Positions 5,842-46,811 of a stretch of 64,000 bases of DNA are shown one piece after another. A program made the translations under genes and the position numbers. Where the stretch lies: the NCBI GenBank assembly GCA_003223555.1, contig QHVM01000082.1:163762-227761 (forward strand), given 5' to 3'. Each line of letters opens with the position of its first letter. Position 1 is the first letter of the stretch. The notes beneath the pieces are model-generated. The model ran no database searches, was not told the origin of the DNA, and saw only the letters and a program-made list of their open reading frames with translations. The DNA comes from Acidobacteriota bacterium (GTDB lineage Bacteria; Acidobacteriota; Vicinamibacteria; Fen-336).

Positions 5842-6912
5842 TCAGGCCCGCACCAGCGTCGCCCCCCAGCTCATGCCGGCCCCGAAGGCCACCAGCAACA
5901 CCAGGTCCCCCGGCCGGATCCTTCCCCGCCGGGCGCACTCGTCCCACAGCAGGGGGATGGTGGCGGCGGTGGTGTTGCCGTACTTGTGGATGTTGTGGAC
6001 GACCTTGTCGTCGGGGACCCCCAGCGCCTTCTGGCAGTGCTCGTTGATCCGCCGGTTGGCCTGGTGCATGAGCACGAGCGCCACGTCGTCGATCCTCAAG
6101 CCGTTGCGGGCGAGGACCTGCTGCGCGACCTCCACCATGCGGGTGGCGGCGAGCTTGAAGACGTAGCGGCCGTCCATCACCGGGATGTGGTCGCCGCGGG
6201 CGAACTGCTCGGGGTCGGTGTAGGGCCGGTGCTTGAAGCCGGTGCCGGGCACGTAGAGCTTGTCGTAATCGGCCCCGTCGGTGCCGAGGACGGAATCGAC
6301 GATCCCGCGCGAGCCGTCCTCCTGCGCCTGCAGCACCACCGCCGCCCCCGCGTCGCCGAAGAGCACGGTCAGGTGACGGAAGCGGGAGTTCCAGGCGTGC
6401 TCGGCCGGGGTGGGCGGCACGTCCGACCGGCCGTAGAGATAATCCCAGTTGGCGGCCGAGTAGGGCATGAAGCCGCTGTGGACCTCGGCCCCCACCAGCA
6501 GCACGGTGCGGGCCAGGCCCGCCCTGACGTGGGCGTCCACGAGCTGGAGGCCGTAGAGGAAGCCCACGCACTGCTGCCGGATGTCGAAGCAGGGGACGTT
6601 CCGCAGGCCGAGCTTGGCCTGCAGCAGAGGGCCGGCGCCCGGGAAATAGTAGTCGGGGGTCATGGTGGCGAAGACCACCAGGTCCACGTCCTCCGGCGCG
6701 GTGGCCCCCTCGGCCAGGGCCCGGCGGGCGGCGGCCACTCCCAGGTCGGAGGTGGCCGTGCCGAGGTCCACGTAGTAGCGCGTCTCCACCCCGCTGCGCT
6801 CGCGGATCCACTCGTCGCTCGTGTCCATGATGCGGGCCAGCATCTGGTTGGTCACGGCATTGGGGGGGATCTCGGAGCCGCTGCCGACGATGACCGCCCG
6901 CATGAAGCGCAT
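5842..6912 (-). CDS. fabH: 3-oxoacyl-ACP synthase III (KAS III, FabH), copy 1
   Basis: N-terminus AVIVGSGSEIP...NQMLARIMDTSDEWIRERSGV; Cys/His/Asn thiolase-fold catalytic context (CSGF..., [21 protein letters not shown]). Confidence 0.88.
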   Translation of the reverse strand: MRFMRAVIVGSGSEIPPNAVTNQMLARIMDTSDEWIRERSGVETRYYVDLGTATSDLGVAAARRALAEGATAPEDVDLVVFATMTPDYYFPGAGPLLQAKLGLRNVPCFDIRQQCVGFLYGLQLVDAHVRAGLARTVLLVGAEVHSGFMPYSAANWDYLYGRSDVPPTPAEHAWNSRFRHLTVLFGDAGAAVVLQAQEDGSRGIVDSVLGTDGADYDKLYVPGTGFKHRPYTDPEQFARGDHIPVMDGRYVFKLAATRMVEVAQQVLARNGLRIDDVALVLMHQANRRINEHCQKALGVPDDKVVHNIHKYGNTTAATIPLLWDECARRGRIRPGDLVLLVAFGAGMSWGATLVRA

Positions 6913-6959
6913 TCTATCCGGTTGCGCCGGGGCCGGGCGCCGGACTATGGTGGAGGCAC

Positions 6960-7406
6960 ATGCTCAAGCGGGGCGAGACGGCGCCGGACTTCGCGGTGGG
7001 CGGCCGCACCCTCTACCAGATCCTCGACGAGCGCGCGGCGGTGGTCTTCTTCTTCCCCAAGGCGTTCACCGCCGGCTGAACGAAGGAGGCCGGCGGGTTC
7101 CGCCGGGAGTACGACAACCTCCAGGCGTCGGGCTGCGAGGTCATCGGCGTGTCCCGGGATTCCCAGGAGACGAACGACCGCTTCCGGGAGAGCCTGCGCC
7201 TGCCCTACTCGCTCGTCGGCGACCCGGAGGAGCGGATCGTCCGCGCCTACGACGTGCGCTGGCCGATCCTCGGCATGGTCCAGCGCGTCACCTACGTGGT
7301 CGGGCGCAACCGGAAGGTGCGTCTCGCCTTCCACAGCGAGTTGGACATGGACGCCCACTCGGCGCGGGCCTGCCGCGCCCTCGCCGAGCAGGCTCCCTCC
7401 GCCTGA
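6960..7406 (+). CDS. Peroxiredoxin (Bcp/PrxQ family) with in-frame TGA (7077-7079) at the peroxidatic Cys position. Candidate selenocysteine-containing peroxiredoxin, ~148 aa
   Basis: ATG at 6960 reads MLKRGETAPDFAVGGRTLYQILDERAAVVFFFPKAFTAG-TGA-TKEAGGF... The Bcp motif is (K)AFTPGCT, so the TGA replaces the catalytic Cys codon. The same frame continues as ORF 7149..7406 (…GVSRDSQETNDRFRESLRLPYSLVGDPEERIVRAYDV…), which is the Bcp C-terminal half. Confidence 0.72.
7090..7106 (+). promoter_or_regulatory. SECIS-like hairpin 10 nt downstream of the UGA: CCGGCGG-GUU-CCGCCGG (or a 6-bp stem with GGUUC loop)
   Basis: Perfect 7-bp inverted repeat read directly from the sequence. The apical loop contains GGUUC, like the GGUC loop of the E. 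coli fdhF SECIS. Confidence 0.55.
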
Positions 7407-18771: not shown

Positions 18772-19467
18772 TCAGACTACCAGAGTGCTCCCGCCCGCCG
18801 CCTGCTGCACGTGCTTCAGCAGCAGCGACTCCGGGGCCGCGCCCACGAACTCGACGGTCTCGCCGACGACCGTCTTCGGCACCGACGAGACGCCGTACTT
18901 CTGGGCCAGCTCGGGATAGCCCGTCACCTCCACGCCGTCGGCGGTGATCTTGTCGCTCTCGATCGCGAAGCGGATGGCCAGGCGGACCGCCCGGGGACAG
19001 TAGGGTCAGGTCGGGGTCGAGAAGACCTGGAGGTGCACGGGGCGCGGCAGCTCCATGAGGGCGGCCCGTGTCTCGTCGGACAGGCCGCTGTCGCCCCGGG
19101 ACACGTCCAGGATCGCCTCGACGAGCGTCCCGAACTCGTAGCCGGACGGCAGGCCGTAGAGGCGGATGCCGTAGTCCTTGTCCTTCCCCATCACCGCGAT
19201 GGCGGGGATGCGCGCGATGCCGAGCGACTCGACCTTCTCCTTGTCGAGGACGAAATTGTACGACTCGACCGTCAGCCGGGGGTCGATGGCGGCCAGCTCC
19301 TCGACGAGGCGCCGCACCTGCTCGGACTCGGGATCGGCCAGGGCCTGGGAGAACACCGCCAGCCGCACGGGCTCGACGAGCCGGGCGAACTCCTCCTTGA
19401 GCTGGGAGGCGACGTCGTCGGTCATCAGCGGCATGCGCGAAACGTCCTCCGCCATCGAGTATAGCAA
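18772..19467 (-). CDS. Two-domain glutaredoxin-like / protein-disulfide-oxidoreductase (PDO)-like thioredoxin-fold protein with in-frame TGA (19006-19008) at the first Cys of the CPYC motif. Candidate selenoprotein (U-P-Y-C), ~231 aa
   Basis: ORF 19006..19467 ends …LQVFSTPT-TGA. The same frame continues PYCPRAVRLAIRFAIESDKITADGVEVTGYPELAQKYGVSSVPKTVVGETVEFVGAAPESLLLKHVQQAAGGSTLVV and stops at 18772. TPTCPYCP is the canonical Grx/Trx active site. The N-terminal Trx-like unit lacks CxxC, as in the glutaredoxin-like two-domain family. Confidence 0.72.
18978..18994 (-). promoter_or_regulatory. SECIS-like hairpin 11 nt downstream of the UGA: CCGGGCG-GUC-CGCCUGG (one G-U pair), or a 6-bp stem with GGUCC loop
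   Basis: Read from the sequence. Loop GGUCC compared with GGUUC in the peroxiredoxin element. The similar stems (CCGGCGG / CCGGGCG) and identical spacing support a shared function. Confidence 0.5.
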
Positions 19468-25494: not shown

Positions 25495-26481
25495 ATGATC
25501 GAGGTCGAGAACCTCACCAAACGCTACGGCCGCACGACCGCGGTGGACGGGATCTCCTTCCGCGTGCGGAAGGGGGAGATCCTCGGCTTCCTCGGCCCCA
25601 ACGGGGCGGGGAAGACCACCACCATGCGCATCCTCACCGGCTACCTGCCGCCCACCGAGGGCACGGCCCGCGTGGCCGGCTACGACGTCTTCGAGGCGCC
25701 GATCGAGGTGAAGAAGCGCGTGGGCTACATCCCGGAGACGCCGCCCCTCTATCCGGACATGGAGGTGGACGAGTTCCTGGACTTCTGCGCGAAGATCAAG
25801 GGCATCCCCGGCCCGTCGCGCAAGGGCAAGATCGACGAGGCGGTCGACAAGACCCGCGTCGGCGACGTCCGCGGCCGGCTCATCGGCCGGCTGTCCAAGG
25901 GCTACCGCCAGCGGGTGGGCCTGGCCCAGGCCATCCTGAACAACCCCGACGTCCTCATCCTCGACGAGCCGACCGCGGGCCTCGATCCCAAGCAGATCAT
26001 CGAGACCCGCGAGCTCATCAAGGGGCTGGGGGGCGACCACACGATCGTGCTCTCCACGCACATCCTGCCCGAGGTCTCCATGACCTGCGGTCGGGTGGTG
26101 ATCATCAACAAGGGCAAGGTGGTGGCCGAGGACACGCCGGAGAACCTCACCCGCCGCCTGCGCGGCGCGGGAGCGCTGCGCGTCGACGTGCGGGGCGAGG
26201 CGACCGCGGCCGCCGAGGCGGTCCGCTCGGTACCCGGGGTGGTCTCGGTCCGTCCCCGTCCCGAGTCGGCGGGGGTGGCGACGCTGGAGGTGGAGGCGGA
26301 GCCGGGACGGGACGTGCGGCCGGACATCGCGCGCGCGGTGGTCTCGCGCGGCCTCGACCTGCTCGCCCTGCACCAGGTGGGCATGAGCCTGGAGGAGATC
26401 TTCCTCCACCTCACCACCACCGACGCCGCCCGCGCCGAAGCCCCCCCGGCCGCCCCGCGCTCCGCGGAGGTGACGGCATGA
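25495..26481 (+). CDS. ABC transporter ATP-binding protein (ABC-2 type, GldA-like)
   Basis: Walker A GPNGAGKTT, signature LSKGYRQRV, Walker B ILILDEPT. Confidence 0.85.
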   Translation: MIEVENLTKRYGRTTAVDGISFRVRKGEILGFLGPNGAGKTTTMRILTGYLPPTEGTARVAGYDVFEAPIEVKKRVGYIPETPPLYPDMEVDEFLDFCAKIKGIPGPSRKGKIDEAVDKTRVGDVRGRLIGRLSKGYRQRVGLAQAILNNPDVLILDEPTAGLDPKQIIETRELIKGLGGDHTIVLSTHILPEVSMTCGRVVIINKGKVVAEDTPENLTRRLRGAGALRVDVRGEATAAAEAVRSVPGVVSVRPRPESAGVATLEVEAEPGRDVRPDIARAVVSRGLDLLALHQVGMSLEEIFLHLTTTDAARAEAPPAAPRSAEVTA

Positions 26482-27269
26482 CCTCGCTCCGCAACGTGGC
26501 GGCGATCGTCGAGAAGGAGTGGCGCCACTACTTCGGCAGCCCGATCGCCTACGTCTCGCTGACCGTGTGGGCGCTGCTGTTCGGCATCTTCTTCTACTTC
26601 GCGTTCTCGTTCTTCCTGCGGGAGTCCATGATGGCCGCCCAGCAGATGGAGTTCGGGGGCGGCCCCAAGATGTCCCTGAACGAGCTGCTGATCCGTCCCG
26701 TGATGCACAACATGGCGGTGGTGGCCCTGTTCCTGGCCCCGATGCTCACGATGCGGCTGTTCGCCGAGGAGAAGCGGCAGGGGACGATCGAGCTGCTCGC
26801 CACCGCGCCCCTGACCGACCTCCAGATCGTCCTCGGCAAGTTCCTGGCCGCGGCCGGCCTCTACGGCCTCATGATCCTGGCCGGCCTGGTCGACCTGGCC
26901 CTCATCTGGCACTACGCGTCGACGCCCCCCGAGTGGAAGCCCGTGCTGACCGGCGCTCTCGCCCTGCTGCTCTTCGGGTCGTGCTTCCTCGCCCTGGGGG
27001 TGTTCGTCTCCACCCTCACCCGCAACCAGATCGTGGCCGGCATCCTGTCGTTCTGCCTCTTCCTCGGCGTGTGGACGCTGGGCTGGGCCGACGATCCCGG
27101 GGCGGGGCCGGTCATGAAGGCGATCGCCTACCTCGGGGTGACCACGCACATGGAAGACATGGTCAAAGGGGTGGTGGACCTGAAGGACGTCGTCTTCTAC
27201 CTGAGCTTCATCGCCTTCGGCCTGTTCCTGGCCCACCAATCGGTGCAGAGCCAGCGGTGGAGGGCATGA
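26478..27269 (+). CDS. ABC-2 type transporter permease (GldF-like)
   Basis: 6-TM permease. ATGA overlaps with flanking genes on both sides. Confidence 0.75.
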   Translation: MTSLRNVAAIVEKEWRHYFGSPIAYVSLTVWALLFGIFFYFAFSFFLRESMMAAQQMEFGGGPKMSLNELLIRPVMHNMAVVALFLAPMLTMRLFAEEKRQGTIELLATAPLTDLQIVLGKFLAAAGLYGLMILAGLVDLALIWHYASTPPEWKPVLTGALALLLFGSCFLALGVFVSTLTRNQIVAGILSFCLFLGVWTLGWADDPGAGPVMKAIAYLGVTTHMEDMVKGVVDLKDVVFYLSFIAFGLFLAHQSVQSQRWRA

Positions 27270-28882
27270 TGAAGAGGGCCATCGACCTGCTCGCTCCCCT
27301 CGGCCTGGCCGTCATCGTCGGGTCCGAGGCGTGGCAGCGCTCCGGCCACGCGCTGCCCGGCAAGCCCGACGCCTACCTCATCGCGGGGGCCGCCCTGATC
27401 CTCGCCCACCTGCTGCTGCGCTGGGAGGACGTCTCGAAACGGGTGGGCCGCCGGCAGATGAAGTACGGGGCCAACACCGCCGTGCTGGTGGTGGCCGTCG
27501 TCGGCATCCTCGGCTTCGTCAACTACCTCGTCTACCGCCACACCAAGCGGTGGGACCTCACGAAGAACAAGCGTTACAGCCTCTCCGACCAGACGAAGAA
27601 GGTGCTGGCCGGGCTCAAGGAGGACGTCAAGATCACCTACTTCCAGCGCTCGGCGGAGAGGACGGCGGCCCAGGACCGCATGAAGGAGTATCAGGCCGCT
27701 TCCCCGAGGGTGAAGGTCGAGTTCGTGGACCCGGTGGCGAGCCCGGCCAAGGCCCAGGCCTACGAGGTGCGCGGCCCGTGGCCGATCCTGGTGGTGGAGC
27801 GGGGCGGCAAGCGCGAGAAGGCCACCAACGATTCCGAGCAGGACCTCACCAACGCCTTCATCAAGGTGACCCGCGAGAAGAAGAAGACGGTCTGCTTCGT
27901 GGAGGGCGAGGGCGAGCGGGACATGGACGACGGCGCCGACGGCGGCTTCTCGGCCGTCAAGACCGCCCTCGGCAAGAGCCAGTACGAGACGAAGAAGGTG
28001 CTGCTGGCCCGCGAGCCCGCCGTCCCCGCCGACTGCACGGTGATGGTGGTGGCCGGGCCCCAGCGCGACCTGCTGCCGACCGAGATCGACGCCCTGCGCC
28101 GCTACGCGAAGGGCGGCGGGAAACTGCTCGTGATGTCGGAGCCGGAGGTGAAGTTCCCCACGCCCAACCTGGACGCGCTGGCCAAGGAGTTCAACATCGA
28201 GCTCAGCAAGGACATCGTGGTGGACGTCTCCCCGGTGGGGCAGATCTTCGGGACGGGGGCCCTCACGCCCATCGCCGCCTCGTATCCCTTCCACGAGATC
28301 ACCAAGGACTTCCGGGTCATGACGGTCTTCCATACCGCGCGGAGCGCCGAGGCCGGCAAGGGCACCGTGGAGGGCGTGACCGTGCAGAACCTCCTCCAGA
28401 CCTCTCCCGCGTCGTGGGCGGAGACCGACCTCACCCTGAAGGAGCCGGTGGAGATGAACGAGGGCAAGGACCGCAAGGGACCGATCTCTCTCGGCGCGGT
28501 GGCCACCGTCAAGGCCAGCCCTCCGGCCCCACCGGCGCCGGCCTCGCCGCCCTCTTCGCCGTCGCCCGCCGCGTCGGTGTCTCCTTCCCCCGCCGAGGAG
28601 CCGCCGGCGCCCGCCGAGGGCCGGGTGGTCGTCCTCGGCGACAGCGACTTCGCCACCAACGCGCTGCTCGGCTTCCAGGGCAACCAGGACTTCTTCCTCA
28701 ACACGGTGGCCTGGCTGGCCCAGGACGTCGACCTCATCTCCATCCGGGCCAAGGAACCCGAGGACCAGCGGCTGTTCGTCACCCGGCAGCAGCAGCAGAA
28801 CGTGCTTCTCGTCTCGCTGCTCCTCGTGCCGGGCGCTTTCGTGGTCATGGGCATCGCCGCCTGGTGGAAGCGCCGCGGATGA
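27266..28882 (+). CDS. GldG-like ABC-transport auxiliary component (large periplasmic protein with N- and C-terminal TM anchors)
   Basis: Begins MMKRAIDLLAPLGLAVIVG…; the C-terminal TM is LLVSLLLVPGAFVVMGIAAWWKRRG. Architecture matches GldG/ABC_transp_aux. The upstream part of ORF 26519..28882 is an alternative-frame artefact. Confidence 0.7.
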   Translation: MMKRAIDLLAPLGLAVIVGSEAWQRSGHALPGKPDAYLIAGAALILAHLLLRWEDVSKRVGRRQMKYGANTAVLVVAVVGILGFVNYLVYRHTKRWDLTKNKRYSLSDQTKKVLAGLKEDVKITYFQRSAERTAAQDRMKEYQAASPRVKVEFVDPVASPAKAQAYEVRGPWPILVVERGGKREKATNDSEQDLTNAFIKVTREKKKTVCFVEGEGERDMDDGADGGFSAVKTALGKSQYETKKVLLAREPAVPADCTVMVVAGPQRDLLPTEIDALRRYAKGGGKLLVMSEPEVKFPTPNLDALAKEFNIELSKDIVVDVSPVGQIFGTGALTPIAASYPFHEITKDFRVMTVFHTARSAEAGKGTVEGVTVQNLLQTSPASWAETDLTLKEPVEMNEGKDRKGPISLGAVATVKASPPAPPAPASPPSSPSPAASVSPSPAEEPPAPAEGRVVVLGDSDFATNALLGFQGNQDFFLNTVAWLAQDVDLISIRAKEPEDQRLFVTRQQQQNVLLVSLLLVPGAFVVMGIAAWWKRRG

Positions 28883-30231
28883 AGCTGCCCGATTTCTGGA
28901 AGACCTACGCGGTCCTGGCCGTGCTGGGCGGCCTGGGAGCCTACGTCTACTTCGTCGAGTCCAAGAAGGAGGGGAAGCCGGAGAAGTCGAAGGAGAAGGT
29001 CGTCAGCCTCGACAAGGCAAAGGTCAAGGAGCTGAGCCTGGCTGGAGCGGGCAAGGAAGAGGTGAAGCTCGTCAAGGACGGGACGAGCTGGCGCCTCACC
29101 GCTCCCCAGGCCGCCCCCGCCGACGCGCAGGAGGCCGAGTCGGTGCTCTCCAGCCTGGAGGGGCTGGAGATCGACGAGGTCGTCTCGGAGACGCCGGGCA
29201 AGCTCTCCGAGTTCGGCCTCGACCCTCCGAAGACGAAGGTGACCGTCGTCCAGCAGGGTGGTCCCGCCCAGGAGGTGCTCTTCGGCAACAAGACGCCGGA
29301 CGAAGGCTCGGTCTACGCCAAGCAGCCGAACCGGCCGCGCGTGTTCACGGTGGCCGCCTACAGCGCGAACACGTTCGACAAGAAGCCGTTCGACCTGCGC
29401 GACCGCGACCTCCTGCACGTCCAGCGCGACGCGGTGCGGAAGCTGGAGGTCACGGGCCCCGACGGCGGCTACGCCCTCGCCCGCGACGAGCGAGGCGAAT
29501 GGGGATTCACCGCGCCGCTCGCCACCCGGGCCGGACGGTGGTCGGTCGACGGCCTGCTCGGCAACGTGGAGACGCTGCGCATGGAATCGGTGGCGGCCGA
29601 GGAGCCCGGCGACCTCAAGCCCTACGGCCTCGACAAGCCGGCGCGCGTCGTGAGGCTCGGCCTCGCCGACGGCAACACGAAGACGCTGGAGATCGGCGGG
29701 GCCACCGGGGACAAGAAGCACTACGCCCGCGCGGGCGGGCGGAGCCTGGTGGCGGTGATCCCCGACGCGATCGTCGACGAGCTGGGCAAGGGCAAGGACG
29801 CGCTGCGGGCCAAGCGGCTGCTCGAGGTGTCGAGCTTCGACGTGGAGGGCTTCAACGTCGAGGCCGGCGGCGCGAAGAAGGCCTACGGCCGCACGGCGTC
29901 GAAGGACAAGGACGGCGTCGAGACGTCCAAGTGGAAGCGCACGGTCCCCGACGGCAAGGACCTCGACACCACCAAGGTCCAGGACGCTCTGTTCCTCGTC
30001 GGCGGGGTGGAGGTGCAGGAGTTCCTGGACAAGCCCGCGGGCGCCGAGACCTACGGCCTCGACCACCCTGCCCTGAAGGTGACGATCCGGGAGAAGGACA
30101 AGCCCGAGAGCTTCTTCGAGGTGGGGGAGAAGGGGGGGGCCTACTACGCGCGGCGCGCCGGAGACGAGGCCGTCCTGAAGCTCGACGCGACCAAGGCCGC
30201 CGACCTCGTCAAGAAGTTCTCCGAGCTTTGA
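28879..30231 (+). CDS. DUF4340-like protein (signal-anchor plus repetitive beta-rich periplasmic domain), typical fourth gene of GldA/F/G-type clusters
   Basis: MKLPDFWKTYAVLAVLGGLGAYVYFV… ATGA overlap with the preceding gene. Family call by architecture and context. Confidence 0.55.
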   Translation: MKLPDFWKTYAVLAVLGGLGAYVYFVESKKEGKPEKSKEKVVSLDKAKVKELSLAGAGKEEVKLVKDGTSWRLTAPQAAPADAQEAESVLSSLEGLEIDEVVSETPGKLSEFGLDPPKTKVTVVQQGGPAQEVLFGNKTPDEGSVYAKQPNRPRVFTVAAYSANTFDKKPFDLRDRDLLHVQRDAVRKLEVTGPDGGYALARDERGEWGFTAPLATRAGRWSVDGLLGNVETLRMESVAAEEPGDLKPYGLDKPARVVRLGLADGNTKTLEIGGATGDKKHYARAGGRSLVAVIPDAIVDELGKGKDALRAKRLLEVSSFDVEGFNVEAGGAKKAYGRTASKDKDGVETSKWKRTVPDGKDLDTTKVQDALFLVGGVEVQEFLDKPAGAETYGLDHPALKVTIREKDKPESFFEVGEKGGAYYARRAGDEAVLKLDATKAADLVKKFSEL

Positions 30232-38885: not shown

Positions 38886-39170
38886 TCAGTGACCGAGCGT
38901 GCGGCAGGACCCGCTGCTGACGCACGGCTTGTCGGGCTCCATGATGCAGCGGTCGGAGCCGCCCGGGACGCTCAGCAGCTGGAGGCTGGGATGCGTGTGG
39001 ACGTGGACCGCGGCCGGCGCCGCCGTCCGGAGGCGGCCGGCCTGGAGCCGGGCCACCGCTTCCTCGAGGGCGGACACCCGCGACTCGAGGTCCGCCGTGG
39101 CCGGCGTCCCGCCCTCGCGGATCTGGGAGAGCACCTCCTCGGTCAGCTCGCGGATGCGATTGTCGTCCAC
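38886..39170 (-). CDS. Small BMC-operon protein (94 aa): N-terminal amphipathic encapsulation-peptide-like helix plus C-terminal His/Cys-rich tail
   Basis: MDDNRIRELTEEVLSQIREGG (amphipathic helix) … HVHTHPSLQLLSVPGGSDRCIMEPDKPCVSSGSCRTLGH. Last gene of the coupled BMC operon. Confidence 0.5.
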   Translation of the reverse strand: MDDNRIRELTEEVLSQIREGGTPATADLESRVSALEEAVARLQAGRLRTAAPAAVHVHTHPSLQLLSVPGGSDRCIMEPDKPCVSSGSCRTLGH

Positions 39171-39194: not shown

Positions 39195-39467
39195 CTAGCC
39201 CGCGATCTCGACGGAGTCCACGATCCCCACGATGGCCGCGTCTACCCCGGCCAGGCCGCGGTCGAGCGCCATCATCGCCGCCTTGCCGTCGAGGACCAGG
39301 AGCACGCGGTCGCCGACCCCGGCGTCGACCGCGTCGATGGCCATCACCGCGGGGCCGCGGTCCTGGCCGTCGAGGTCGAGCGGCTGGGCGAGGAGGAGCT
39401 TGGCTCCTTCGAGCTTGCCGTTCTTCTGCGTGGAGACGACGCTGCCCACGACGCGCGCGATCAGCAT
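39195..39467 (-). CDS. BMC vertex protein (BMC-P, EutN/CcmL/PduN family), copy 1
   Basis: MLIARVVGSVVSTQKNGKLEGAKLLLAQPLD… is the EutN/CcmL signature. 90 aa. Confidence 0.88.
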   Translation of the reverse strand: MLIARVVGSVVSTQKNGKLEGAKLLLAQPLDLDGQDRGPAVMAIDAVDAGVGDRVLLVLDGKAAMMALDRGLAGVDAAIVGIVDSVEIAG

Positions 39468-39733
39468 CAGGACGTGCTCCAGTGGTCGACGATGCCCACG
39501 ATGGCGGCGTCGGTCGGGACCTCGGCGGGCAGGAAGGGCAGGGCGGCCTCGCGCCCGCGAACGTAGAAGACCTCCTCCGCCGCTCCCGCGCCCACCGAGT
39601 CGACCGCGACCAGTGGCCGGCCGCTCGGGGCGCGGTCCGGGCGCAAGGGCTGGATGACGAGCAGCTTCGTTCCGGCGAGGCCGGGGTCCTTGCGGGTGGC
39701 GACGACGGTGCCGATGACGCGGGCCAGGAACAC
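39467..39733 (-). CDS. BMC vertex protein (BMC-P, EutN/CcmL family), copy 2
   Basis: MFLARVIGTVVATRKDPGLAGTKLLVIQPL…; its stop overlaps the next start by 1 nt (TGATG). Confidence 0.85.
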   Translation of the reverse strand: MFLARVIGTVVATRKDPGLAGTKLLVIQPLRPDRAPSGRPLVAVDSVGAGAAEEVFYVRGREAALPFLPAEVPTDAAIVGIVDHWSTS

Positions 39734-39736
39734 GGC

Positions 39737-40006
39737 TCAGTCCTTCACTTCGACGGTGTCGACGACGCCCACGATGGCCGCGTCCACCGGACAGTCCTTG
39801 AGGCCGGAAGCCATGCGGGCCGAGGAGCCGCTCACGACGAGGACGCGGTCGCCGAGGCCGGCGTCCACCGTGTCCACCGTGACCACGTATCCGGCCTCGT
39901 CCTTGCCGCGGGGGTCGATCATCCGCACGAGGAGGAACTTCGAGCCCAGCAGGCGCTCGTCCTTCCGCGTGGCGACCACCGTGCCGACCACCCGCGCGAG
40001 GATCAT
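39737..40006 (-). CDS. BMC vertex protein (BMC-P, EutN/CcmL family), copy 3
   Basis: MILARVVGTVVATRKDERLLGSKFLLVRMID…. Confidence 0.85.
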   Translation of the reverse strand: MILARVVGTVVATRKDERLLGSKFLLVRMIDPRGKDEAGYVVTVDTVDAGLGDRVLVVSGSSARMASGLKDCPVDAAIVGVVDTVEVKD

Positions 40007-40033
40007 GAGGGAGAGCCGGGGCCGGGAGGGGGT

Positions 40034-40318
40034 CTACTTCGCCGCCTTGCCGATGGGCAGCACGTCCTCGAGGTTGGCGTGCGGCCGGGGGATCACGTGC
40101 ACGGAGACCAGCTCGCCCACCCGCCGGGCGGCCGCCGCGCCCGCGTCGGTGGCGGCCTTGACCGCCGCCACGTCGCCGCGCACCAGGGCGGTCACATAGC
40201 CGGACCCGATCTTCTCGTAGCCGACGAGGGTGACCTTCGCCGCCTTCACCATGGCGTCGGCGGCCTCGATCATCGCCACCAGCCCCCGGGTCTCGATCAT
40301 GCCCAGCGCTTCACCCAT
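40034..40318 (-). CDS. BMC hexamer shell protein (BMC-H, PduA/CcmK/EutM family, Pfam00936)
   Basis: [77 protein letters not shown] is the near-consensus BMC-H sequence. Confidence 0.92.
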
Positions 40319-40375
40319 GCTGCCTCCCCTGAACGGCCAATGCGGTCAGACTCTGGACCGGCGCGTGGCCGGAAG

Positions 40376-41149
40376 TCAAGTACGGAAGCGCTCGATCGCT
40401 TCCGCCAGCAGGCGCACCAGCTCCTCGCGGCTGAGGCTGAACCGCGCGGGCCCGCCCTCCGCGCCGGCGGCCAGCGTCGGCGAGGGCCGCGGCTCCGGCG
40501 CGCACACCGGCGGAGGGTAGCCGGCCGGCTCGCGCATCGCCGCCAGCCGCTCGACGTCGGCGGCCGGGAGGTGGCCCTCTCGACCCAGCAGCCGCGCCAC
40601 CAGCGCCACGCGCGCCACCTGCTCGAGGGTCTCCATGCGCTCCCAGGCCTGGTAGAGGTCGACCCCGACGGAGAGGGCGCCGTGGTTGGCGAGCAGGAGC
40701 GTCTGGGCTTCGCAGATCGCGCGGCCGACGTTGTCGGCCAGCTCGGAGGTCGAAGGCGTGCCGTAGGGGATCACGGGCACCACGCCGAGCGTCACCACCG
40801 CCTCCGCGGTCAGCGGCCGGTCGAGCGGGATCCCGGCCACCGCGAAGCCGGTGGCGGTCGGGGGGTGGGCGTGCACGACCGCGCCCACGTCGCTCCGGCG
40901 GCGGTAGACCGCGGTGTGCATGAGGACCTCGGTCGAGGCGCGCCCCCCGTCGAGGGGCCGGCCCTCGAGGTCGGTCCTCACGATGCATTCGGGCGCGAGG
41001 AAGCCCTTGCAGACCGCGGCGGGCGTCACGTAGAGGACGCTTCCGTCACGGACCGAGATGTTGCCCTCGTTGCCGCCGATGAGCCGGCGGGCGTAGAGCC
41101 GCCGGCCGACCTCGACCATATCGGCCCGGATCCGGTCGCTGCCGTTCAC
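40376..41149 (-). CDS. Class II aldolase/adducin-family enzyme (fuculose-/rhamnulose-phosphate aldolase-like) with Pro-rich linker and C-terminal encapsulation-peptide-like amphipathic helix
   Basis: GNEGNISVRDGSVLYVTPAAVCKG…, VVHAHPPTATGFA and LANHGALSVG are class II aldolase motifs. C-terminus PAGYPPPVCAPEPRPSPTLAAGAEGGPARFSLSREELVRLLAEAIERFRT. Confidence 0.85.
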   Translation of the reverse strand: MNGSDRIRADMVEVGRRLYARRLIGGNEGNISVRDGSVLYVTPAAVCKGFLAPECIVRTDLEGRPLDGGRASTEVLMHTAVYRRRSDVGAVVHAHPPTATGFAVAGIPLDRPLTAEAVVTLGVVPVIPYGTPSTSELADNVGRAICEAQTLLLANHGALSVGVDLYQAWERMETLEQVARVALVARLLGREGHLPAADVERLAAMREPAGYPPPVCAPEPRPSPTLAAGAEGGPARFSLSREELVRLLAEAIERFRT

Positions 41150-41412
41150 GGGCCGGGGGGCAGGGCCAGGGCGCGGTCGCGGCAGGCCGGCGAGCAGAAG
41201 TGCATCTGGCGGCCGCCGACGACCGCGCTCACCGCGCGCTCCCGGGGGAGGAAGGTGTTGCAGATGCGGTCCCGCACCATGTCGACGCCGGGGGCGGGCG
41301 TGGCGGCCGGCGGCTCGCGCAGGCCCTCGACCAGGCCGGCCACGAACCGCAGCCCGATCCGGACGAGGAAGAGCGCGACCAGGAAGCGGACGAAGGCGAC
41401 GATGAGGATCAC
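41146..41412 (-). CDS. Membrane-anchored YHS/TRASH-domain (metal-binding zinc-ribbon-like) protein. Start taken at GTG 41412, which gives a GTGA overlap with the upstream TPR gene
   Basis: One TM helix (VILIVAFVRFLVALFLVRIGLRFVAGL), then VRDRICNTFLPRERAVSAVVGGRQMHFCSPACRDRA (YHS pattern C-x2-…-FCS-x2-C). GGAGG lies 5 nt upstream of the GTG. The longer ATG-41505 ORF would overlap the TPR gene by 97 nt. Confidence 0.55.
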   Translation of the reverse strand: MILIVAFVRFLVALFLVRIGLRFVAGLVEGLREPPAATPAPGVDMVRDRICNTFLPRERAVSAVVGGRQMHFCSPACRDRALALPPGP

Positions 41413-42026
41413 GACGGCCTCCGGCTGGCGCGCACCTGGTCGATCTGCTCGCGCAGGCCCCGGAGCTGCGGATCGTCCGGATAGCGCTTGATCAGCCCTT
41501 CCCACACCGCCACCGCGTCCTTGGGCCGGCCGGTCTGCATGAGCGCGATACCCTTGTTGTAGAGCGCCTTCTTGTGGCCGGGGTCGCTGGCCAGGGCCCG
41601 GTCGAACTCGGCCAGCGCCTCGCCGGCCTTGCCGGCGCTGACGAGGCAGGCCCCCAGGTCGACCCGCACGTCGTTGTTGTCGGGCGCGAGCGCGAGAGCC
41701 TCCCGGTACCAGCGGGCCGCCTCGTCGAACTGGCTGTGATCCATGAGCAGGTTGCCCAGCTCGATCCGGGCCTGGACGTTTGCCTTCTCGCGCGCGGCCA
41801 GGGACTCAAGCGCCCGCACCTCGTTGGGGTCCGGGGTCGCGGCCGCGCCGGCTCGGGCGCGTCCGGCCGCCGGCGCCGGCGCCACCTCGGCCTCGGCCGT
41901 CGGCGCGCCCGCGCCCGGCGGCGGCACGCGCGACTCCGCGTGGTCGCCGAGGCCCGCCGCCATGTAGCCGAGCACGAAGCCGAAGACGATGCCGGCCACC
42001 GCGTAGATCATCGGGTCTTTATTCAT
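41409..42026 (-). CDS. N-terminally membrane-anchored TPR-repeat protein, first gene of the BMC operon
   Basis: TM helix MIYAVAGIVFGFVLGYMAAGL, an Ala/Pro linker, then TPR helices (ARIELGNLLMDHSQFDEAARWYREALALAPDNNDVRVDLGACLVSAGKAGEALAEFDRALASDPGHKKALYNKGIALMQTG…). Confidence 0.7.
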   Translation of the reverse strand: MNKDPMIYAVAGIVFGFVLGYMAAGLGDHAESRVPPPGAGAPTAEAEVAPAPAAGRARAGAAATPDPNEVRALESLAAREKANVQARIELGNLLMDHSQFDEAARWYREALALAPDNNDVRVDLGACLVSAGKAGEALAEFDRALASDPGHKKALYNKGIALMQTGRPKDAVAVWEGLIKRYPDDPQLRGLREQIDQVRASRRPS

Positions 42027-44283: not shown

Positions 44284-45294
44284 CTAGTCCCAGGCCAGGC
44301 CGGACCAGCGCGCGAGCACGGTGCCCACCGTGAATCCCGCCCCCACCGAGGCCATGAGGACGAGGTCCCCGCGGCGCAGCCGGCCCTCGTCGAGCGCGGT
44401 GCCGAGCGCGAGGGGGATGGTGGCGGCGGTCGTGTTGCCGTAACGGTGGATGTTCTTCAGCACCTTCGACTCGGGGAAGCCCAGCCGCTCGCTGGCCCCG
44501 TCGATGATGCGGACGTTGGCCTGGTGGGCCACGAAGAGGTCGACGTCGGCGGGGACGAGCCCGTTGCGGTCGAGCAGGTGCTTGGTGGCCTCGGCGAACT
44601 TCCGCACCGCGTACTTGAAGACGTGGGCGCCGTCCTGGCGGACGTAATGCAGCCGCTTCTCCACCGTCTCGTGGGAGGGCGGCTGGGCGCTGCCGCCGGC
44701 CGGCATGTAGAGGTGGCAGCTTCCCGCCCCGTCCACCTCGTTGTAGAAGTCGATGATGCCGGTGTCGTCCGCGGACGGCTCGACCAGCACCGCCCCCGCG
44801 CCGTCGCCGAAGAGCACGCAGGTGGTGCGGTCCTGCATGTCCAGGATCGAGGTCATCACGTCGGCCCCGACCACGAGGACCTTGTCGTGGGCGCCGGTCT
44901 CGACGAACTGCGCCCCCAGGGTCAGGGCGTAGAGGAAGCCGGAGCAGGCGGCCGAGATGTCGAAGCCCCACGCCCGGGTGGCCTTGAGCTTGTCCTGGAG
45001 GACGCAGGCGGTGGCGGGGAAGACGGTGTCGGGGGTCACCGTCGCCACCACGATGAGGTCCAGCTCGGCCGCGTCGAGCCCCCGGCGTTCGAGGCACTCC
45101 CGGACCGCCTTCGTGGCCAGCTCGCTCGTCGGCGTGCCCGGCTCGGCCCACCGCCGCTGCTCGATGCCGGTCCGGGTCCGGATCCACTCGTCGTTGGTGT
45201 TGACGATCTTCTCGAGGTCGGCGTTGGTGACCACGCGCTCGGGGACGTAGCGCCCCAGCGACGTGATGCGCGCCCGGCGGTTCGCCCGCGGCAT
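44284..45294 (-). CDS. fabH: 3-oxoacyl-ACP synthase III (FabH), copy 2
   Basis: [35 protein letters not shown]…, [18 protein letters not shown] and [14 protein letters not shown]. Confidence 0.88.
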
Positions 45295-45383
45295 TTCGGG
45301 AAGGCTATTAGAGCCGAGCCGCCGGGGTCAAGCACGCGGCGGTTGTCAGCGTGCGGGAGGACGTGGCAGGCTAGGCGCCCGGC

Positions 45384-45800
45384 ATGCAGACCCCCGAGCA
45401 GCTCCTGAGGATCATGGCCGAGCAGGTGCCGTTCAACCGCCTGCTGGGCATGCACGGCGAATCGGTGGCGGCCGGCTCGTGCGTTCTGGTGCTGCCGGTG
45501 CGGCCCGATTTCGTGGGCGACTTCCGGCGTCCAGCCTTGCACGGCGGCGTGCTCTCCTCGCTCATCGACACCGCGGGCGGGGTCGCGGCCTGGTCCGCCC
45601 TCGGCCCGGGCGAGTCCGTCTCCACGGTGGACCTGCGGGTGGACTTCCTGGAGCCGGCGGGGCTGGGCGGTCCGCTGCGGGCCGACGCCCAGCTCGTGCG
45701 CAAGGGCAACCGCGTCTGCCACGTGCGGATCGCGGTCACCCAGGACGGCCTGCTCGTCGCCGAGGGCCGGGGCGTCTACAACATCCACAAGCGGAGCTGA
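45384..45800 (+). CDS. Hotdog-fold thioesterase (PaaI/YbgC-like, 'uncharacterized domain 1' family)
   Basis: …MHGESVAAGSCVLVLPVRPDFVGDFRRPALHGGVLSSLIDTAGGVAAW… is the PaaI-type pattern. Confidence 0.7.
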   Translation: MQTPEQLLRIMAEQVPFNRLLGMHGESVAAGSCVLVLPVRPDFVGDFRRPALHGGVLSSLIDTAGGVAAWSALGPGESVSTVDLRVDFLEPAGLGGPLRADAQLVRKGNRVCHVRIAVTQDGLLVAEGRGVYNIHKRS

Positions 45801-45803
45801 CGG

Positions 45804-46811
45804 GTGCGCGTCCTCGTCGTGGGCGGGACGCGCTTCGTCGGCTACGAGCTCGTCTGGCGCCTGCTCGCCGGCGGGCACCGGCTGACCCTCTTCAACCGCG
45901 GCACCCGTCCCGACCCGTTCGGGGAGCGGGTGGAGCGGCTGCGGGGGGACCGTACCGCGGGCGACCTGGCTCGCCTGGTGGCCGGGCGCCGTTTCGACGC
46001 GGCGGTCGACTTCGCTGTCTTCAACGGTGATGAAGCCGCGGAAGCGGTCGGGGTGTTGCGAGGTCACGTCGGCCACTACGTGATGATCTCCTCCGGCCAG
46101 GTGTACCTGGTGCGCGAGCCGCGGCCCACGCCGGCCCGGGAGGACGACTACGACGGTCCCCTCATGGCGGCTCCCGCTCTTGCCAGGGAGAAGGAAGAGT
46201 GGGACTACGGCATGGGCAAGCGCGCGGCGGAGGACGTCCTGGCCCGCGCATGGCAGGCGGAGCGGTTCCCGTCGACCCGCCTGCGCCTGCCGATGGTCAA
46301 CGGCGAGCGCGACCACCACCGCCGCCTGGAGGGTTACCTCTGGCGCCTGCTCGACGGCGGCCCGGTCGTCCTGCCCGACGGCGGGATGCGCCCGATGAGG
46401 CACGTCTACTCCGGCGCCGTGGCGCGGGCCACGGCGGCGCTGCTCGGCCGGAGCGACACGTTTGGCCAGGCCTACAACCTCGCCCAGGACGAGACGCCCA
46501 CGCTGCGGGAGGCGCTGACGGTGGTCGCCGAACGGCTCGGCGCCTCGCCGCGCCTCGTCACCGTGCCATCGTCGCAGATCGAGACCGCCGGCCTGGACGT
46601 CGTGGCCGTCTCGCCCTTCAGCGGCCGGTGGATGTCCTTCCTCGACCCGTCGCGAGCCAAGACCGAGCTGGGCTTCCGCCACGAGCCGCTGGCCGAATAC
46701 CTCGGCCGGATCGTGGCCGCCTTCCTGGCCCAGCCGCCGGCGTCGCCGCCCGAGAGCCTCTCCCATCGGGCCGACGAGATCGCCCTCGCCGGGTCCGCCG
46801 GGAGACACTAG
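45804..46811 (+). CDS. NAD-dependent epimerase/dehydratase family protein (extended SDR)
   Basis: MRVLVVGGTRFVGYELVWRLLAGGHRLTLFNRG is an N-terminal Rossmann GxxGxxG. Confidence 0.75.
   Translation: MRVLVVGGTRFVGYELVWRLLAGGHRLTLFNRGTRPDPFGERVERLRGDRTAGDLARLVAGRRFDAAVDFAVFNGDEAAEAVGVLRGHVGHYVMISSGQVYLVREPRPTPAREDDYDGPLMAAPALAREKEEWDYGMGKRAAEDVLARAWQAERFPSTRLRLPMVNGERDHHRRLEGYLWRLLDGGPVVLPDGGMRPMRHVYSGAVARATAALLGRSDTFGQAYNLAQDETPTLREALTVVAERLGASPRLVTVPSSQIETAGLDVVAVSPFSGRWMSFLDPSRAKTELGFRHEPLAEYLGRIVAAFLAQPPASPPESLSHRADEIALAGSAGRH

What the first reader, a model, noticed from the sequence alone, without database searches (positions are those of the whole stretch)
6960..7406. Peroxiredoxin gene with in-frame UGA at the peroxidatic cysteine: candidate selenoprotein
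The Bcp/PrxQ reading frame reads …FFFPKAFTAG-TGA-TKEAGGF… (TGA at 7077-7079). The Bcp active site is AFTPGCT, so the stop codon sits exactly where the catalytic Cys codon should be, and the frame continues for ~110 more codons of recognisable Bcp sequence. A GC-rich hairpin (CCGGCGG-GUU-CCGCCGG, with GGUUC in the loop) starts 10 nt downstream, the position and loop type expected for a bacterial SECIS. A TGA at exactly the redox-residue position is unlikely to be a chance nonsense mutation. A second such gene lies 12 kb away.
Basis: partly seen in the sequence, partly recalled or inferred. Interest (0 to 1): 0.8.

Follow-up and report, generated by a model that had tools for sequence, protein, structure and literature searches.

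The report
Selenocysteine peroxiredoxin gene with SECIS hairpin
This is very probably a real selenoprotein gene: a small peroxide-detoxifying enzyme whose catalytic cysteine is replaced by selenocysteine, encoded by a recoded UGA "stop" and a conserved RNA hairpin. It belongs to an already known class of bacterial selenoproteins, so it is a sound but ordinary finding.

Summary
ORF 6960-7406 (+) is an AhpC/TSA (Bcp/PrxQ-like) peroxiredoxin with an in-frame TGA at 7077-7079. That codon sits exactly at the peroxidatic Cys of the PxxxTxxC motif.

- **Conservation:** of 158 related loci, 61 carry TGA at this codon, 97 carry TGC/TGT, and none carry TAA or TAG. All keep an open frame.
- **Hairpin:** CCGGCGG-GUU-CCGCCGG (7090-7106) starts 10 nt after the UGA and meets all four published bacterial SECIS criteria. 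At least 6 bp are present at this site in 85% of TGA forms and 0 of 91 Cys forms. It shows compensatory changes and frozen synonymous sites.
- **Second gene:** 12 kb away on the minus strand lies a second selenoprotein gene. It is not a peroxiredoxin but an AhpF-N-terminal/PDO homologue (TIGR02187 "PDO_seleno_TRX", motif UPYC, TGA at 19006-19008). It has a near-identical hairpin and the same conservation in relatives.

Both families (Prx TxxU; AhpF-N-terminal homologue UxxC) are already listed as prokaryotic selenoprotein families. This is therefore a new, currently mis-annotated member of a known kind, probably from a soil Acidobacteriota (Vicinamibacteria-like) genome.

selA/selB/selC/selD are absent from the 64-kb window and could not be checked in the rest of the genome.

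The parts
6960..7406 (+). Selenoprotein peroxiredoxin gene (148 codons including U40, plus stop). AhpC/TSA family, Bcp/PrxQ-like. Active-site residues are P33, T37, U40 and R109.
   Evidence: P33, T37, C/U40, R109 and H133 are invariant in 158 relatives.
6952..6956 (+). Shine-Dalgarno-like GGAGG, 3 nt upstream of the ATG at 6960.
   Evidence: Read directly from the sequence. Not tested further.
7077..7079 (+). In-frame UGA read as selenocysteine (U40), at the peroxidatic Cys position.
   Evidence: (61 TGA / 97 TGY / 0 TAA or TAG at the homologous codon).
7090..7106 (+). Bacterial SECIS-type hairpin CCGGCGG-GUU-CCGCCGG. It has a 7-bp stem and a 3-nt loop, with 17 nt between the UGA and the apical loop.
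18772..19455 (-). Second selenoprotein gene: protein disulfide oxidoreductase / homologue of the AhpF N-terminal domain, with redox motif UPYC. The start is ATG 19455, or ATG 19434 as called in relatives.
   Evidence: TIGR02187 PDO_seleno_TRX, 243 bits against cutoff 185..
19006..19008 (-). In-frame UGA (Sec) at the first Cys of the CxxC motif of the PDO gene.
   Evidence: TGA at the same codon in seven related contigs.
18978..18994 (-). SECIS-type hairpin CCGGGCG-GUC-CGCCUGG, starting 11 nt after the PDO UGA.
   Evidence: -10.8 kcal/mol; identical in relatives.

Best explanation
The gene at 6960-7406 encodes a Bcp/PrxQ-like peroxiredoxin whose peroxidatic residue is selenocysteine.

Inferred from the established bacterial mechanism: during translation, the mRNA hairpin at 7090-7106, lying inside the coding sequence 10 nt after UGA-40, is bound by the elongation factor SelB carrying Sec-tRNA(Sec). 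This places the complex at the ribosomal A site, so UGA is read as Sec rather than stop, and the full 148-residue enzyme is made.

Inferred from peroxiredoxin chemistry: the selenolate of U40 is activated by T37 and R109 in the PxxxTxxU pocket. It attacks a peroxide and is oxidised to a selenenic acid. It is then recycled either through a selenenylsulfide with the clade-specific C138 or directly by a thioredoxin-fold reductant.

The same organism encodes a second selenoprotein 12 kb away, a PDO/AhpF-N-terminal-domain homologue with a UPYC motif and a near-identical SECIS hairpin. That shows the lineage recodes UGA at redox cysteines.

Shown here: the reading frame, the active-site alignment, conservation of TGA, and the conservation, covariation and TGA-specificity of the hairpin. 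Inferred: SelB binding, Se incorporation, peroxidase activity and the recycling route.
For: - **Active-site position:** the TGA sits exactly at the peroxidatic Cys of the PxxxTxxC motif.
- **TGA conservation:** at the homologous codon of 158 loci there are 61 TGA, 97 TGC/TGT and 0 TAA/TAG. All TGA forms keep an open frame of 122-148 residues.
- **Database signature:** about 50 of the 120 best database hits are 83-98-aa C-terminal fragments, meaning relatives are split by gene callers at the same place. This was verified in DNA for L001-L003 with conserved FabH|Prx|GT2|PMT_2 synteny.
- **Hairpin versus the consensus:** it meets all four bSECIS consensus criteria quoted. It has a 3-nt loop beginning GU, a 7-bp stem, 17 nt from UGA to loop, and -12.7 kcal/mol.
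- **Hairpin is specific to TGA forms:** mean 48-nt MFE is -17.0 versus -10.5 kcal/mol, p=2e-15. A stem of at least 6 contiguous bp at the site occurs in 85% of TGA forms and 0 of 91 Cys forms.
- **Covariation:** 90.5% of cells pair, 3 of 7 pairs show double changes (12 cells), 0 of 500 shuffles reach this, and slid controls give 31-54%. A second clade has a different stem sequence and a shifted register, and is also 90.6% paired.
- **Synonymous sites are frozen in the hairpin:** GCC 39/42, GGC 41/41, GGG 29/29, CGC 42/43. Entropy is 0.46 against 0.98 elsewhere, p=0.007.
- **Window-wide scan:** of five in-frame TGAs flanked by coding sequence, only the two at redox-Cys positions have a hairpin. 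The chance rate of such a hairpin is 0.4-0.8% per TGA.
- **Second gene:** it passes the TIGR02187 PDO_seleno_TRX equivalog cutoff. The TGA and hairpin are conserved in seven related contigs.
- **Standard code:** TGA is the ordinary stop codon of most genes in the window, so the genetic code is standard.
- **Precedent:** Prx (PF00578, TxxU) and the AhpF-N-terminal homologue (TIGR02187, UxxC) are listed prokaryotic selenoprotein families, and Acidobacteria are recorded Sec users.
Against: - No selA, selB, selD or tRNA-Sec is present in the 64-kb window or in 1.6 Mb of fetched flanks of relatives. The rest of the source genome could not be searched.
- Single-sequence folding energies are not better than dinucleotide shuffles in this GC-rich context.
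- No Rfam family matches the hairpin.
- The protein reaches no NCBIfam equivalog cutoff (best is Bcp PRK09437, 60 bits against 140; PrxU 20.8 against 270). It is therefore outside the curated Sec-Prx model.
- Sequences are phylogenetically related, so the TGA-versus-Cys contrasts are not independent samples.
- There is no experimental evidence of Se incorporation.
Confidence: 0.9

Rival explanations
1. The gene is a pseudogene. A chance nonsense mutation inactivated a Cys-peroxiredoxin, and only a 39-residue peptide, or nothing, is made.
For: Gene callers in public databases treat it this way, calling a 39-aa ORF plus an 85-88-aa ORF. No Sec machinery was found in the window.
Against: The same TGA recurs in 61 loci across Acidobacteriota, Polyangia, Chloroflexota and Dehalococcoidia, and is never TAA or TAG. 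Both halves stay open, keep coding statistics (GC3 1.0) and keep invariant catalytic residues downstream (R109, H133). The hairpin covaries.
Confidence: 0.02
2. The TGA is a sequencing or assembly error for TGC/TGT.
For: One close relative (L167, 81% amino-acid identity) has TGC at this codon with an otherwise identical hairpin. A single-base difference is therefore all that separates the two states.
Against: TGA is found in dozens of independent assemblies from different projects and samples. These include a 98%-identical contig (L164) and an NCBI MAG (L003).
Confidence: 0.01
3. The UGA is read through, but not as selenocysteine. It could be suppressed by near-cognate tRNA (Trp or Cys), or the Sec machinery could insert Cys, with the hairpin acting only as a read-through stimulator.
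For: Sec machinery is not demonstrated for this genome. A Cys at position 40 would also give an active peroxiredoxin, as 97 natural Cys forms show.
Against: The hairpin meets the SelB-type bSECIS consensus in position, loop and stem. A second gene of a curated selenoprotein family (TIGR02187 PDO_seleno_TRX) has the same type of element. TGA is the normal stop codon of neighbouring genes. Sec use by Acidobacteria and by this protein family has precedent.
Confidence: 0.05
4. The hairpin is only a by-product of the conserved peptide EAGGFRRE in a GC-rich genome and has no RNA function.
For: It lies in coding sequence. The folding z-score is not significant. Close Cys forms encode a similar peptide, and one keeps the hairpin.
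Against: Synonymous sites inside the hairpin are frozen while the same amino acids elsewhere use several codons. Other clades change the peptide (EASRFRDA, EAREFREQ) with compensatory base changes that keep the stem. 0 of 91 Cys forms have at least 6 bp at the site. The unrelated PDO gene has the same element at the same distance.
Confidence: 0.02

Closest known systems
Sec-containing peroxiredoxins ('Prx, PF00578, TxxU' selenoprotein family). Examples are PrxU of Eubacterium acidaminophilum (Sohling et al. 2001, cited in PMC13188914) and the computationally identified Sec-Prx of Geobacter, Anaeromyxobacter, Syntrophus and others (PMC1794560).
   Same: AhpC/TSA fold. Sec replaces the peroxidatic Cys in the PxxxTxxC motif. 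The UGA is followed by an in-ORF hairpin. Cys-containing homologues coexist with the Sec forms.
   Different: It does not match the curated PrxU model (NF040737: 20.8 bits against cutoff 270). It belongs to a Bcp/PrxQ-like clade of high-GC soil Acidobacteriota (Vicinamibacteria-like), in which Sec is the majority state (47 Sec and 6 Cys among fetched loci). It lacks the alpha2 and alpha3 resolving Cys and has a clade-specific C138.
Cys-type BCP/PrxQ peroxiredoxins with solved structures: 5epf, 5enu, 3drn (Sulfolobus Bcp1) and 3gkk (Xanthomonas BCP).
   Same: The closest solved relatives by sequence (E=6e-18 to 3e-11). The active-site segment P-x-x-x-T-P-G-C-T-x-E aligns residue for residue.
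   Different: Sec replaces Cys. It scores below the NCBIfam equivalog cutoffs for E. coli-type Bcp and Deinococcus PrxQ. There is no Cys at CP+5.
Bacterial SECIS elements (the bSECISearch consensus; the E. coli fdhF SECIS is the archetype).
   Same: A stem-loop immediately downstream of the UGA inside the ORF. It has a small apical loop beginning G-U, 17-18 nt from UGA to loop, and a stable GC-rich upper stem. From my own knowledge, the fdhF minimal element also sits 11 nt after the UGA and has a GGUC loop.
   Different: No bulged U is evident. The loop is only 3 nt if the closing G-C pair forms. There is no match to any Rfam model. SelB binding is untested.
Selenoprotein homologues of the AhpF N-terminal domain / protein disulfide oxidoreductase (TIGR02187 'PDO_seleno_TRX', UxxC; for example in Carboxydothermus hydrogenoformans).
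   Same: The second gene (18772-19455, minus strand) passes the equivalog cutoff and has the UxxC motif with a SECIS-type hairpin.
   Different: It comes from an acidobacterial lineage. Public gene calls truncate it to 142 aa.

Membership tests
Peroxiredoxin, AhpC/TSA family (PF00578) | Pfam PF00578 score above the gathering threshold. | tested here: met
   92.5 bits against 26, E=2.4e-26, covering residues 6-121.
Peroxiredoxin, AhpC/TSA family (PF00578) | Universal active-site motif PxxxTxxC plus the conserved catalytic Arg. | tested here: met
   P33, T37, U40 (C in Cys forms) and R109 are invariant in 158 relatives. The motif aligns to solved Prx active sites.
BCP/PrxQ subfamily (E. coli Bcp or Deinococcus PrxQ equivalogs) | NCBIfam equivalog cutoff reached (NF006960 Bcp; NF053650 PrxQ). 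| tested here: not met
   60.4 bits against 140, and 56 against 260. These are the closest families, but the protein is not an equivalog, so it is described as Bcp/PrxQ-like.
BCP/PrxQ subfamily | Resolving Cys at CP+5 (helix alpha2) or in helix alpha3. This is typical but not universal, since 1-Cys members exist. | tested here: not met
   Position 45 is Gly. The alpha3 Cys (column 73) is 98% conserved in the other clade's Cys forms but absent here. C138 is conserved in 91% of the acidobacterial clade.
PrxU-type Sec-peroxiredoxin (NF040737) | Equivalog cutoff reached. | tested here: not met
   20.8 bits against 270.
Prokaryotic selenoprotein family 'Prx (TxxU)' | In-frame UGA aligned with a catalytic Cys of Cys-containing homologues (a Sec/Cys pair). 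| tested here: met
Prokaryotic selenoprotein family 'Prx (TxxU)' | TGA-containing orthologues in other organisms, with the frame intact on both sides. | tested here: met
   61 loci from at least four phylum-level groups, with 0 TAA or TAG. Lengths are 122-148 aa.
Prokaryotic selenoprotein family 'Prx (TxxU)' | The genome encodes selA, selB, selC (tRNA-Sec) and selD. | not testable with these tools
   None in the 64-kb window or in the fetched flanks.
Prokaryotic selenoprotein family 'Prx (TxxU)' | Selenium is incorporated into the protein. | not testable with these tools
   This requires 75Se labelling or mass spectrometry.
Bacterial SECIS (bSECISearch consensus, quoted in PMC13188914) | Apical loop of 3-9 nt and upper stem of 4-16 bp. 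| tested here: met
   Loop GUU (3 nt) and a 7-bp stem.
Bacterial SECIS (bSECISearch consensus) | G in one of the first two loop positions, mostly followed by G or U. | tested here: met
   The loop begins G-U. In 24 distinct clade sequences, G21 is at least 90% conserved and U22 and U23 are invariant.
Bacterial SECIS (bSECISearch consensus) | [quoted passage not shown] | tested here: met
   17 nt for Prx and 18 nt for PDO.
Bacterial SECIS (bSECISearch consensus) | MFE of -7.5 kcal/mol or lower. | tested here: met
   -12.7 kcal/mol (Prx) and -10.8 kcal/mol (PDO) for the hairpins alone.
Bacterial SECIS | Binds SelB and is required for Sec insertion. | not testable with these tools
   Only indirect support is available: covariation, specificity to TGA forms and synonymous constraint.
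PDO_seleno_TRX (TIGR02187), for the second gene | Equivalog cutoff reached, with UxxC at the second thioredoxin fold. | tested here: met
   243.1 bits against 185. The motif is T-U-P-Y-C. The TGA is conserved in L168-L174.

The most novel reading that the evidence does not exclude
The most novel reading not excluded is this. The Vicinamibacteria-like clade is an uncurated, Sec-dominant Bcp subfamily that has swapped the usual alpha3 resolving Cys for a C-terminal Cys (C138) and cycles through a selenenylsulfide. The neighbouring Sec-containing AhpF-N-terminal-domain homologue would be its dedicated reductant. Together they would form a two-selenoprotein peroxide-reduction relay in largely aerobic soil Acidobacteriota. 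Sec and Cys would switch frequently between close strains, as suggested by a TGC form that still carries the SECIS.
Probability: 0.15. Interest if true: 0.45.

Novelty: new member of a known kind. Interest (0 to 1): 0.3.

Why it matters
- **Annotation:** both genes are split or truncated in public gene calls. Examples are an 88-aa 'hypothetical protein', 85-88-aa 'peroxiredoxin Q/BCP' fragments and 142-aa 'AhpF' fragments. No curated NCBIfam model captures this Sec-Prx clade, so a common soil-acidobacterial antioxidant enzyme is systematically mis-annotated.
- **Biology:** this adds a well-populated Sec-dominant Bcp-like clade to the known Sec-peroxiredoxins. It also offers natural Sec/Cys pairs at more than 80% identity for comparing the two catalytic residues.
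- **Limits:** it does not change what is known about selenocysteine decoding.

Tried and rejected
- **Rfam:** the gathering scan of the whole window and permissive scans of both hairpin regions gave no SECIS or other meaningful hit.
- **Single-sequence folding significance:** uninformative in 73% GC sequence. I replaced it with comparative tests and a base-rate count.
- **Search for Sec machinery:** ARAGORN on the window, on 20 related loci and on all 164 sequences then held found no tRNA-Sec. Pfam on about 50 window ORFs found no SelA/SelB/SelD.
- **Other same-frame ORF pairs separated by TGA:** 39737-39739 (two EutN genes) and 45798-45800 (thioesterase and epimerase) are adjacent genes without hairpins, not selenoproteins. 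The TGA ending at 14985 lies in a non-coding frame of the PPDK region.
- **PDO orthologues in the Prx-locus flanks:** none found.
- **Further selenoprotein genes in the acidobacterial flanks:** none found.
- **One failed call:** a Pfam call with wrong coordinates.
- **Structure prediction:** not run, because the sequence evidence for the fold was already strong and the tool returns no coordinates for measuring the U40-C138 distance.

Full report
**Observation.** The window is 72.7% GC. ORF 6960-7406 (+) starts at ATG 6960, which is preceded by GGAGG at 6952-6956. It reads MLKRGETAPDFAVGGRTLYQILDERAAVVFFFPKAFTAG-TGA-TKEAGGFRREYDNL... and ends at TGA 7404-7406. The in-frame TGA is at 7077-7079, with 39 codons before it and 108 after. 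With Cys substituted at that position, the protein matches Pfam AhpC-TSA (PF00578) at 92.5 bits and E=2.4e-26, and Redoxin (PF08534) at E=2.5e-10. The hairpin is CCGGCGG (7090-7096), GUU (7097-7099), CCGCCGG (7100-7106). It starts 10 nt after the UGA and is the predicted local structure.

**Position of the stop.** In an alignment with 19 full-length homologues, the stop falls in the column of the Cys of ..FFFPKAFTPGCT... Against solved structures the same segment aligns to the peroxidatic-Cys segment of Bcp/PrxQ enzymes: 5epf 'paamtpgctkea', 5enu 'pkdntpgctte', and 3drn with Ser at that residue. E-values are 6e-18 to 6e-17. P33, T37, C/U40, R109 and H133 are invariant in all 158 relatives analysed. 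This gives the PxxxTxxC(U) motif plus the catalytic Arg.

**Is the TGA an accident?** No.
- About 50 of the 120 best database hits are 83-98-residue fragments covering only the part downstream of the TGA. That is what gene callers produce when relatives are interrupted at the same place.
- DNA from three such contigs, including NCBI Acidobacteria MAG QHVK01000175.1, shows the in-frame stop at the same codon with conserved FabH | Prx | GT2 | PMT_2 synteny.
- Across 160 loci fetched from GTDB genomes and JGI/ENA metagenomes, plus L001-L003 and the window, 158 sites could be scored. The homologous codon is TGA in 61, TGC in 92, TGT in 5, and never TAA or TAG.
- TGA forms occur in Acidobacteriota/Vicinamibacteria MAGs, Polyangia, Chloroflexota and Dehalococcoidia. 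All keep an open frame of 122-148 residues.
- TGA is also the ordinary stop of most neighbouring genes, so the genetic code is standard.

**The hairpin.** Taken alone, the 64-nt segment does not fold better than dinucleotide shuffles (z=-0.54), as expected at 73% GC. Comparative evidence is decisive instead.
- *Specificity to TGA forms.* The 48 nt from the codon onward fold at a mean of -17.0 kcal/mol in 58 distinct TGA forms and -10.5 kcal/mol in 93 Cys forms (Mann-Whitney p=2e-15). A stem of at least 6 contiguous pairs at the homologous position is present in 85% of TGA forms and in 0 of 91 Cys forms.
- *Covariation in the window's clade.* In 24 distinct sequences, 90.5% of cells pair. Three of seven pairs show changes on both sides (C-G to U-A or A-U, G-C to C-G, G-C to A-U; 12 cells). 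None of 500 shuffles reaches this, and slid controls pair at only 31-54%.
- *A second clade.* A Polyangia-type clade encodes a different peptide (EASRFRDA) with a different 8-bp stem (GCGUCGCG/CGCGACGC) shifted by one register. It is also 90.6% paired.
- *Synonymous constraint.* Codon choice is frozen within the hairpin: Ala GCC 39/42, Gly GGC 41/41, Gly GGG 29/29, Arg CGC 42/43. The same amino acids elsewhere in the gene use 3-4 codons. Mean synonymous entropy is 0.46 against 0.98, p=0.007.
- *Match to the published consensus.* The element meets all four criteria of the bacterial SECIS consensus as quoted in PMC13188914. These are a 3-9 nt loop (GUU), a 4-16 bp stem (7 bp), G followed by G/U at the loop start (GU), 16-37 nt from UGA to loop (17 nt), and MFE of -7.5 or lower (-12.7).
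- *Base rate.* Only 0.8% of the 955 TGA trinucleotides in the window have a stem of at least 7 bp with such a loop at +7 to +16. Only 0.4% have one at +10 or +11.

**Second gene.** On the minus strand, 19455 (or 19434) to 18772 reads ...VHLQVFSTPT-TGA-PYCPRAV..., with TGA at 19006-19008.
- It is not a peroxiredoxin. It passes the NCBIfam equivalog TIGR02187 'PDO_seleno_TRX' (protein disulfide oxidoreductase, a homologue of the AhpF N-terminal domain) at 243 bits against a cutoff of 185.
- Eleven nt after its UGA lies CCGGGCG-GUC-CGCCUGG (18978-18994), at -10.8 kcal/mol. It has the same stem length, loop type and distance as the Prx element.
- Dozens of database relatives are 142-residue N-terminal fragments ending exactly at this codon.
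- Seven contigs with conserved synteny (CitMHS | PDO | HGSNAT | Kdo hydroxylase | PPDK) all show TGA, the identical hairpin and an open frame to the normal C-terminus.
- A window-wide scan found five in-frame TGAs flanked by coding-like sequence. Only these two have a downstream hairpin, and the other three are gene junctions or a non-coding frame.

**Mechanism.** By analogy with the established bacterial system, SelB carrying Sec-tRNA(Sec) binds the hairpin as the ribosome reaches UGA-40 and inserts Sec. The product is a 148-residue peroxiredoxin with a selenolate at the peroxidatic position, activated by T37 and R109. The window's clade lacks the usual Bcp resolving Cys at CP+5 (Gly45). It also lacks the alpha3 position, which is 98% Cys in the other clade's Cys forms. 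It has C138 in the C-terminal helix in 91% of members. Recycling therefore goes either through a U40-C138 selenenylsulfide or directly through an external thioredoxin-fold reductant. The AhpF N-terminal domain is the module that reduces AhpC in AhpF (established knowledge). The co-resident Sec-PDO is thus a plausible but untested partner. SelB binding, Se incorporation, peroxidase activity and the recycling path are all inferences.

**What could not be shown.**
- The window contains only tRNA-Pro(CGG).
- Pfam annotation of about 50 ORFs found no SelA, SelB or SelD.
- No tRNA-Sec or SelD-like gene occurs in 1.6 Mb of fetched flanks.
- Indirect support comes from the two independent SECIS-bearing genes, and from the literature record that Acidobacteria include Sec users (3 families and 4 selenoproteins already in 2006, PMC1794560).

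**Comparison with what is known.** 'Peroxiredoxin (Prx), PF00578, TxxU' is listed among experimentally verified prokaryotic selenoproteins (E. acidaminophilum PrxU, 2001). [quoted passage not shown] Twelve Sec-Prx with five independent Cys-to-Sec conversions were reported in 2006. The present gene is therefore a member of a known selenoprotein family. It differs in four respects:
- It does not match the curated PrxU model (20.8 bits against 270) or any other NCBIfam equivalog.
- It belongs to a Bcp/PrxQ-like clade of soil Acidobacteriota in which Sec is the majority state (47 Sec and 6 Cys among fetched loci).
- It has an unusual candidate resolving Cys (C138).
- The closest Cys form (L167, 81% identity, TGC) keeps the whole hairpin. 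This suggests a very recent Sec-to-Cys switch, a direction not recorded for Prx in the 2006 survey.

The likely source is a Vicinamibacteria-like acidobacterium. The best matches are an NCBI 'Acidobacteria bacterium' MAG at 87% identity, and MAGs labelled Vicinamibacteria at 62-63%.

**Verdict.** Novelty is that of a new member of a known kind. The main practical value is correcting a systematic annotation error. Interest is 0.3.

Noticed in passing
window 18772-19455 (-), TGA 19006-19008, hairpin 18978-18994: A second selenoprotein gene. It is a PDO / AhpF-N-terminal-domain homologue (TIGR02187 PDO_seleno_TRX) with a UPYC motif and a SECIS-type hairpin almost identical in form to the Prx one. 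The TGA and hairpin are conserved in seven related contigs.
   Followed up: yes
L167:462-908 (JGI Ga0683568_0374284): A Cys form (TGC) 81% identical to the window's Prx still carries the complete hairpin GCCGGCGGGTTCCGCCGG. This looks like a 'fossil' SECIS and implies a very recent single-base Sec/Cys switch between close strains.
   Followed up: partly
L036, L060, L069, L073, L122, L125, L129, L146 (Polyangia-type); L076, L080 (Chloroflexota/Dehalococcoidia): Sec forms outside Acidobacteriota use a different stem sequence. The Polyangia type also uses a register shifted by one nucleotide with a GUUU/AGUUYC loop, and the Chloroflexota forms have a CUU loop. These forms are interspersed with Cys forms, suggesting several independent Cys/Sec conversions.
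   Followed up: partly
window residue C138 (codon 7371-7373) against alignment column 73: The acidobacterial clade has lost the alpha3 Cys that is 98% conserved in the other clade's Cys forms. It has a C-terminal Cys (C138) conserved in 91% of members, which is a possible relocated resolving residue. H133 is invariant in nearly all 158 sequences.
   Followed up: partly
window 39467-41491 (-): A bacterial microcompartment shell gene cluster. It has one BMC-H gene (PF00936, 40037-40345) and two EutN/CcmL pentamer genes (PF03319, 39740-40033 and 39470-39736), directly downstream of a class II aldolase gene (40376-41491). The two EutN genes are in the same frame, separated only by a TGA. That mimics read-through, but there is no hairpin.
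   Followed up: partly
window 45375-46811 (+): A 4HBT thioesterase gene and an NAD-dependent epimerase gene lie in the same frame, separated only by TGA 45798-45800. This is another look-alike of a recoded stop, with no hairpin and no homology across the junction.
   Followed up: yes
public database entries P0057-P0120 (Prx) and P0205-P0240 (PDO): Both selenoprotein genes are systematically truncated by gene callers. Examples are the NCBI 'hypothetical protein DMF82_09590' (88 aa), JGI 'peroxiredoxin Q/BCP' fragments of 85-88 aa, and JGI 'alkyl hydroperoxide reductase subunit AhpF' fragments of 142 aa.
   Followed up: yes
window 38988-39063 (-): ARAGORN finds tRNA-Pro(CGG), but the Rfam gathering-threshold scan of the whole window reported no hit at all, not even the tRNA family.
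   Followed up: no
window 26474-30231 (+): The genes for an ABC_transp_aux/DUF7088 protein and a DUF4340 protein have clearly lower third-position GC (0.68-0.78) than the rest of the window (0.9-0.97).
   Followed up: no
window 5842-6912 (-) and 44284-45327 (-): There are two FabH-type (ACP_syn_III) paralogues in one 64-kb window, plus several glycosyltransferase genes (GT2, two PMT/PMT_2, GT87) and a Kdo hydroxylase. This suggests envelope glycolipid biosynthesis. The Prx gene sits between FabH and the GT2-PMT_2 genes in all close relatives.
   Followed up: no
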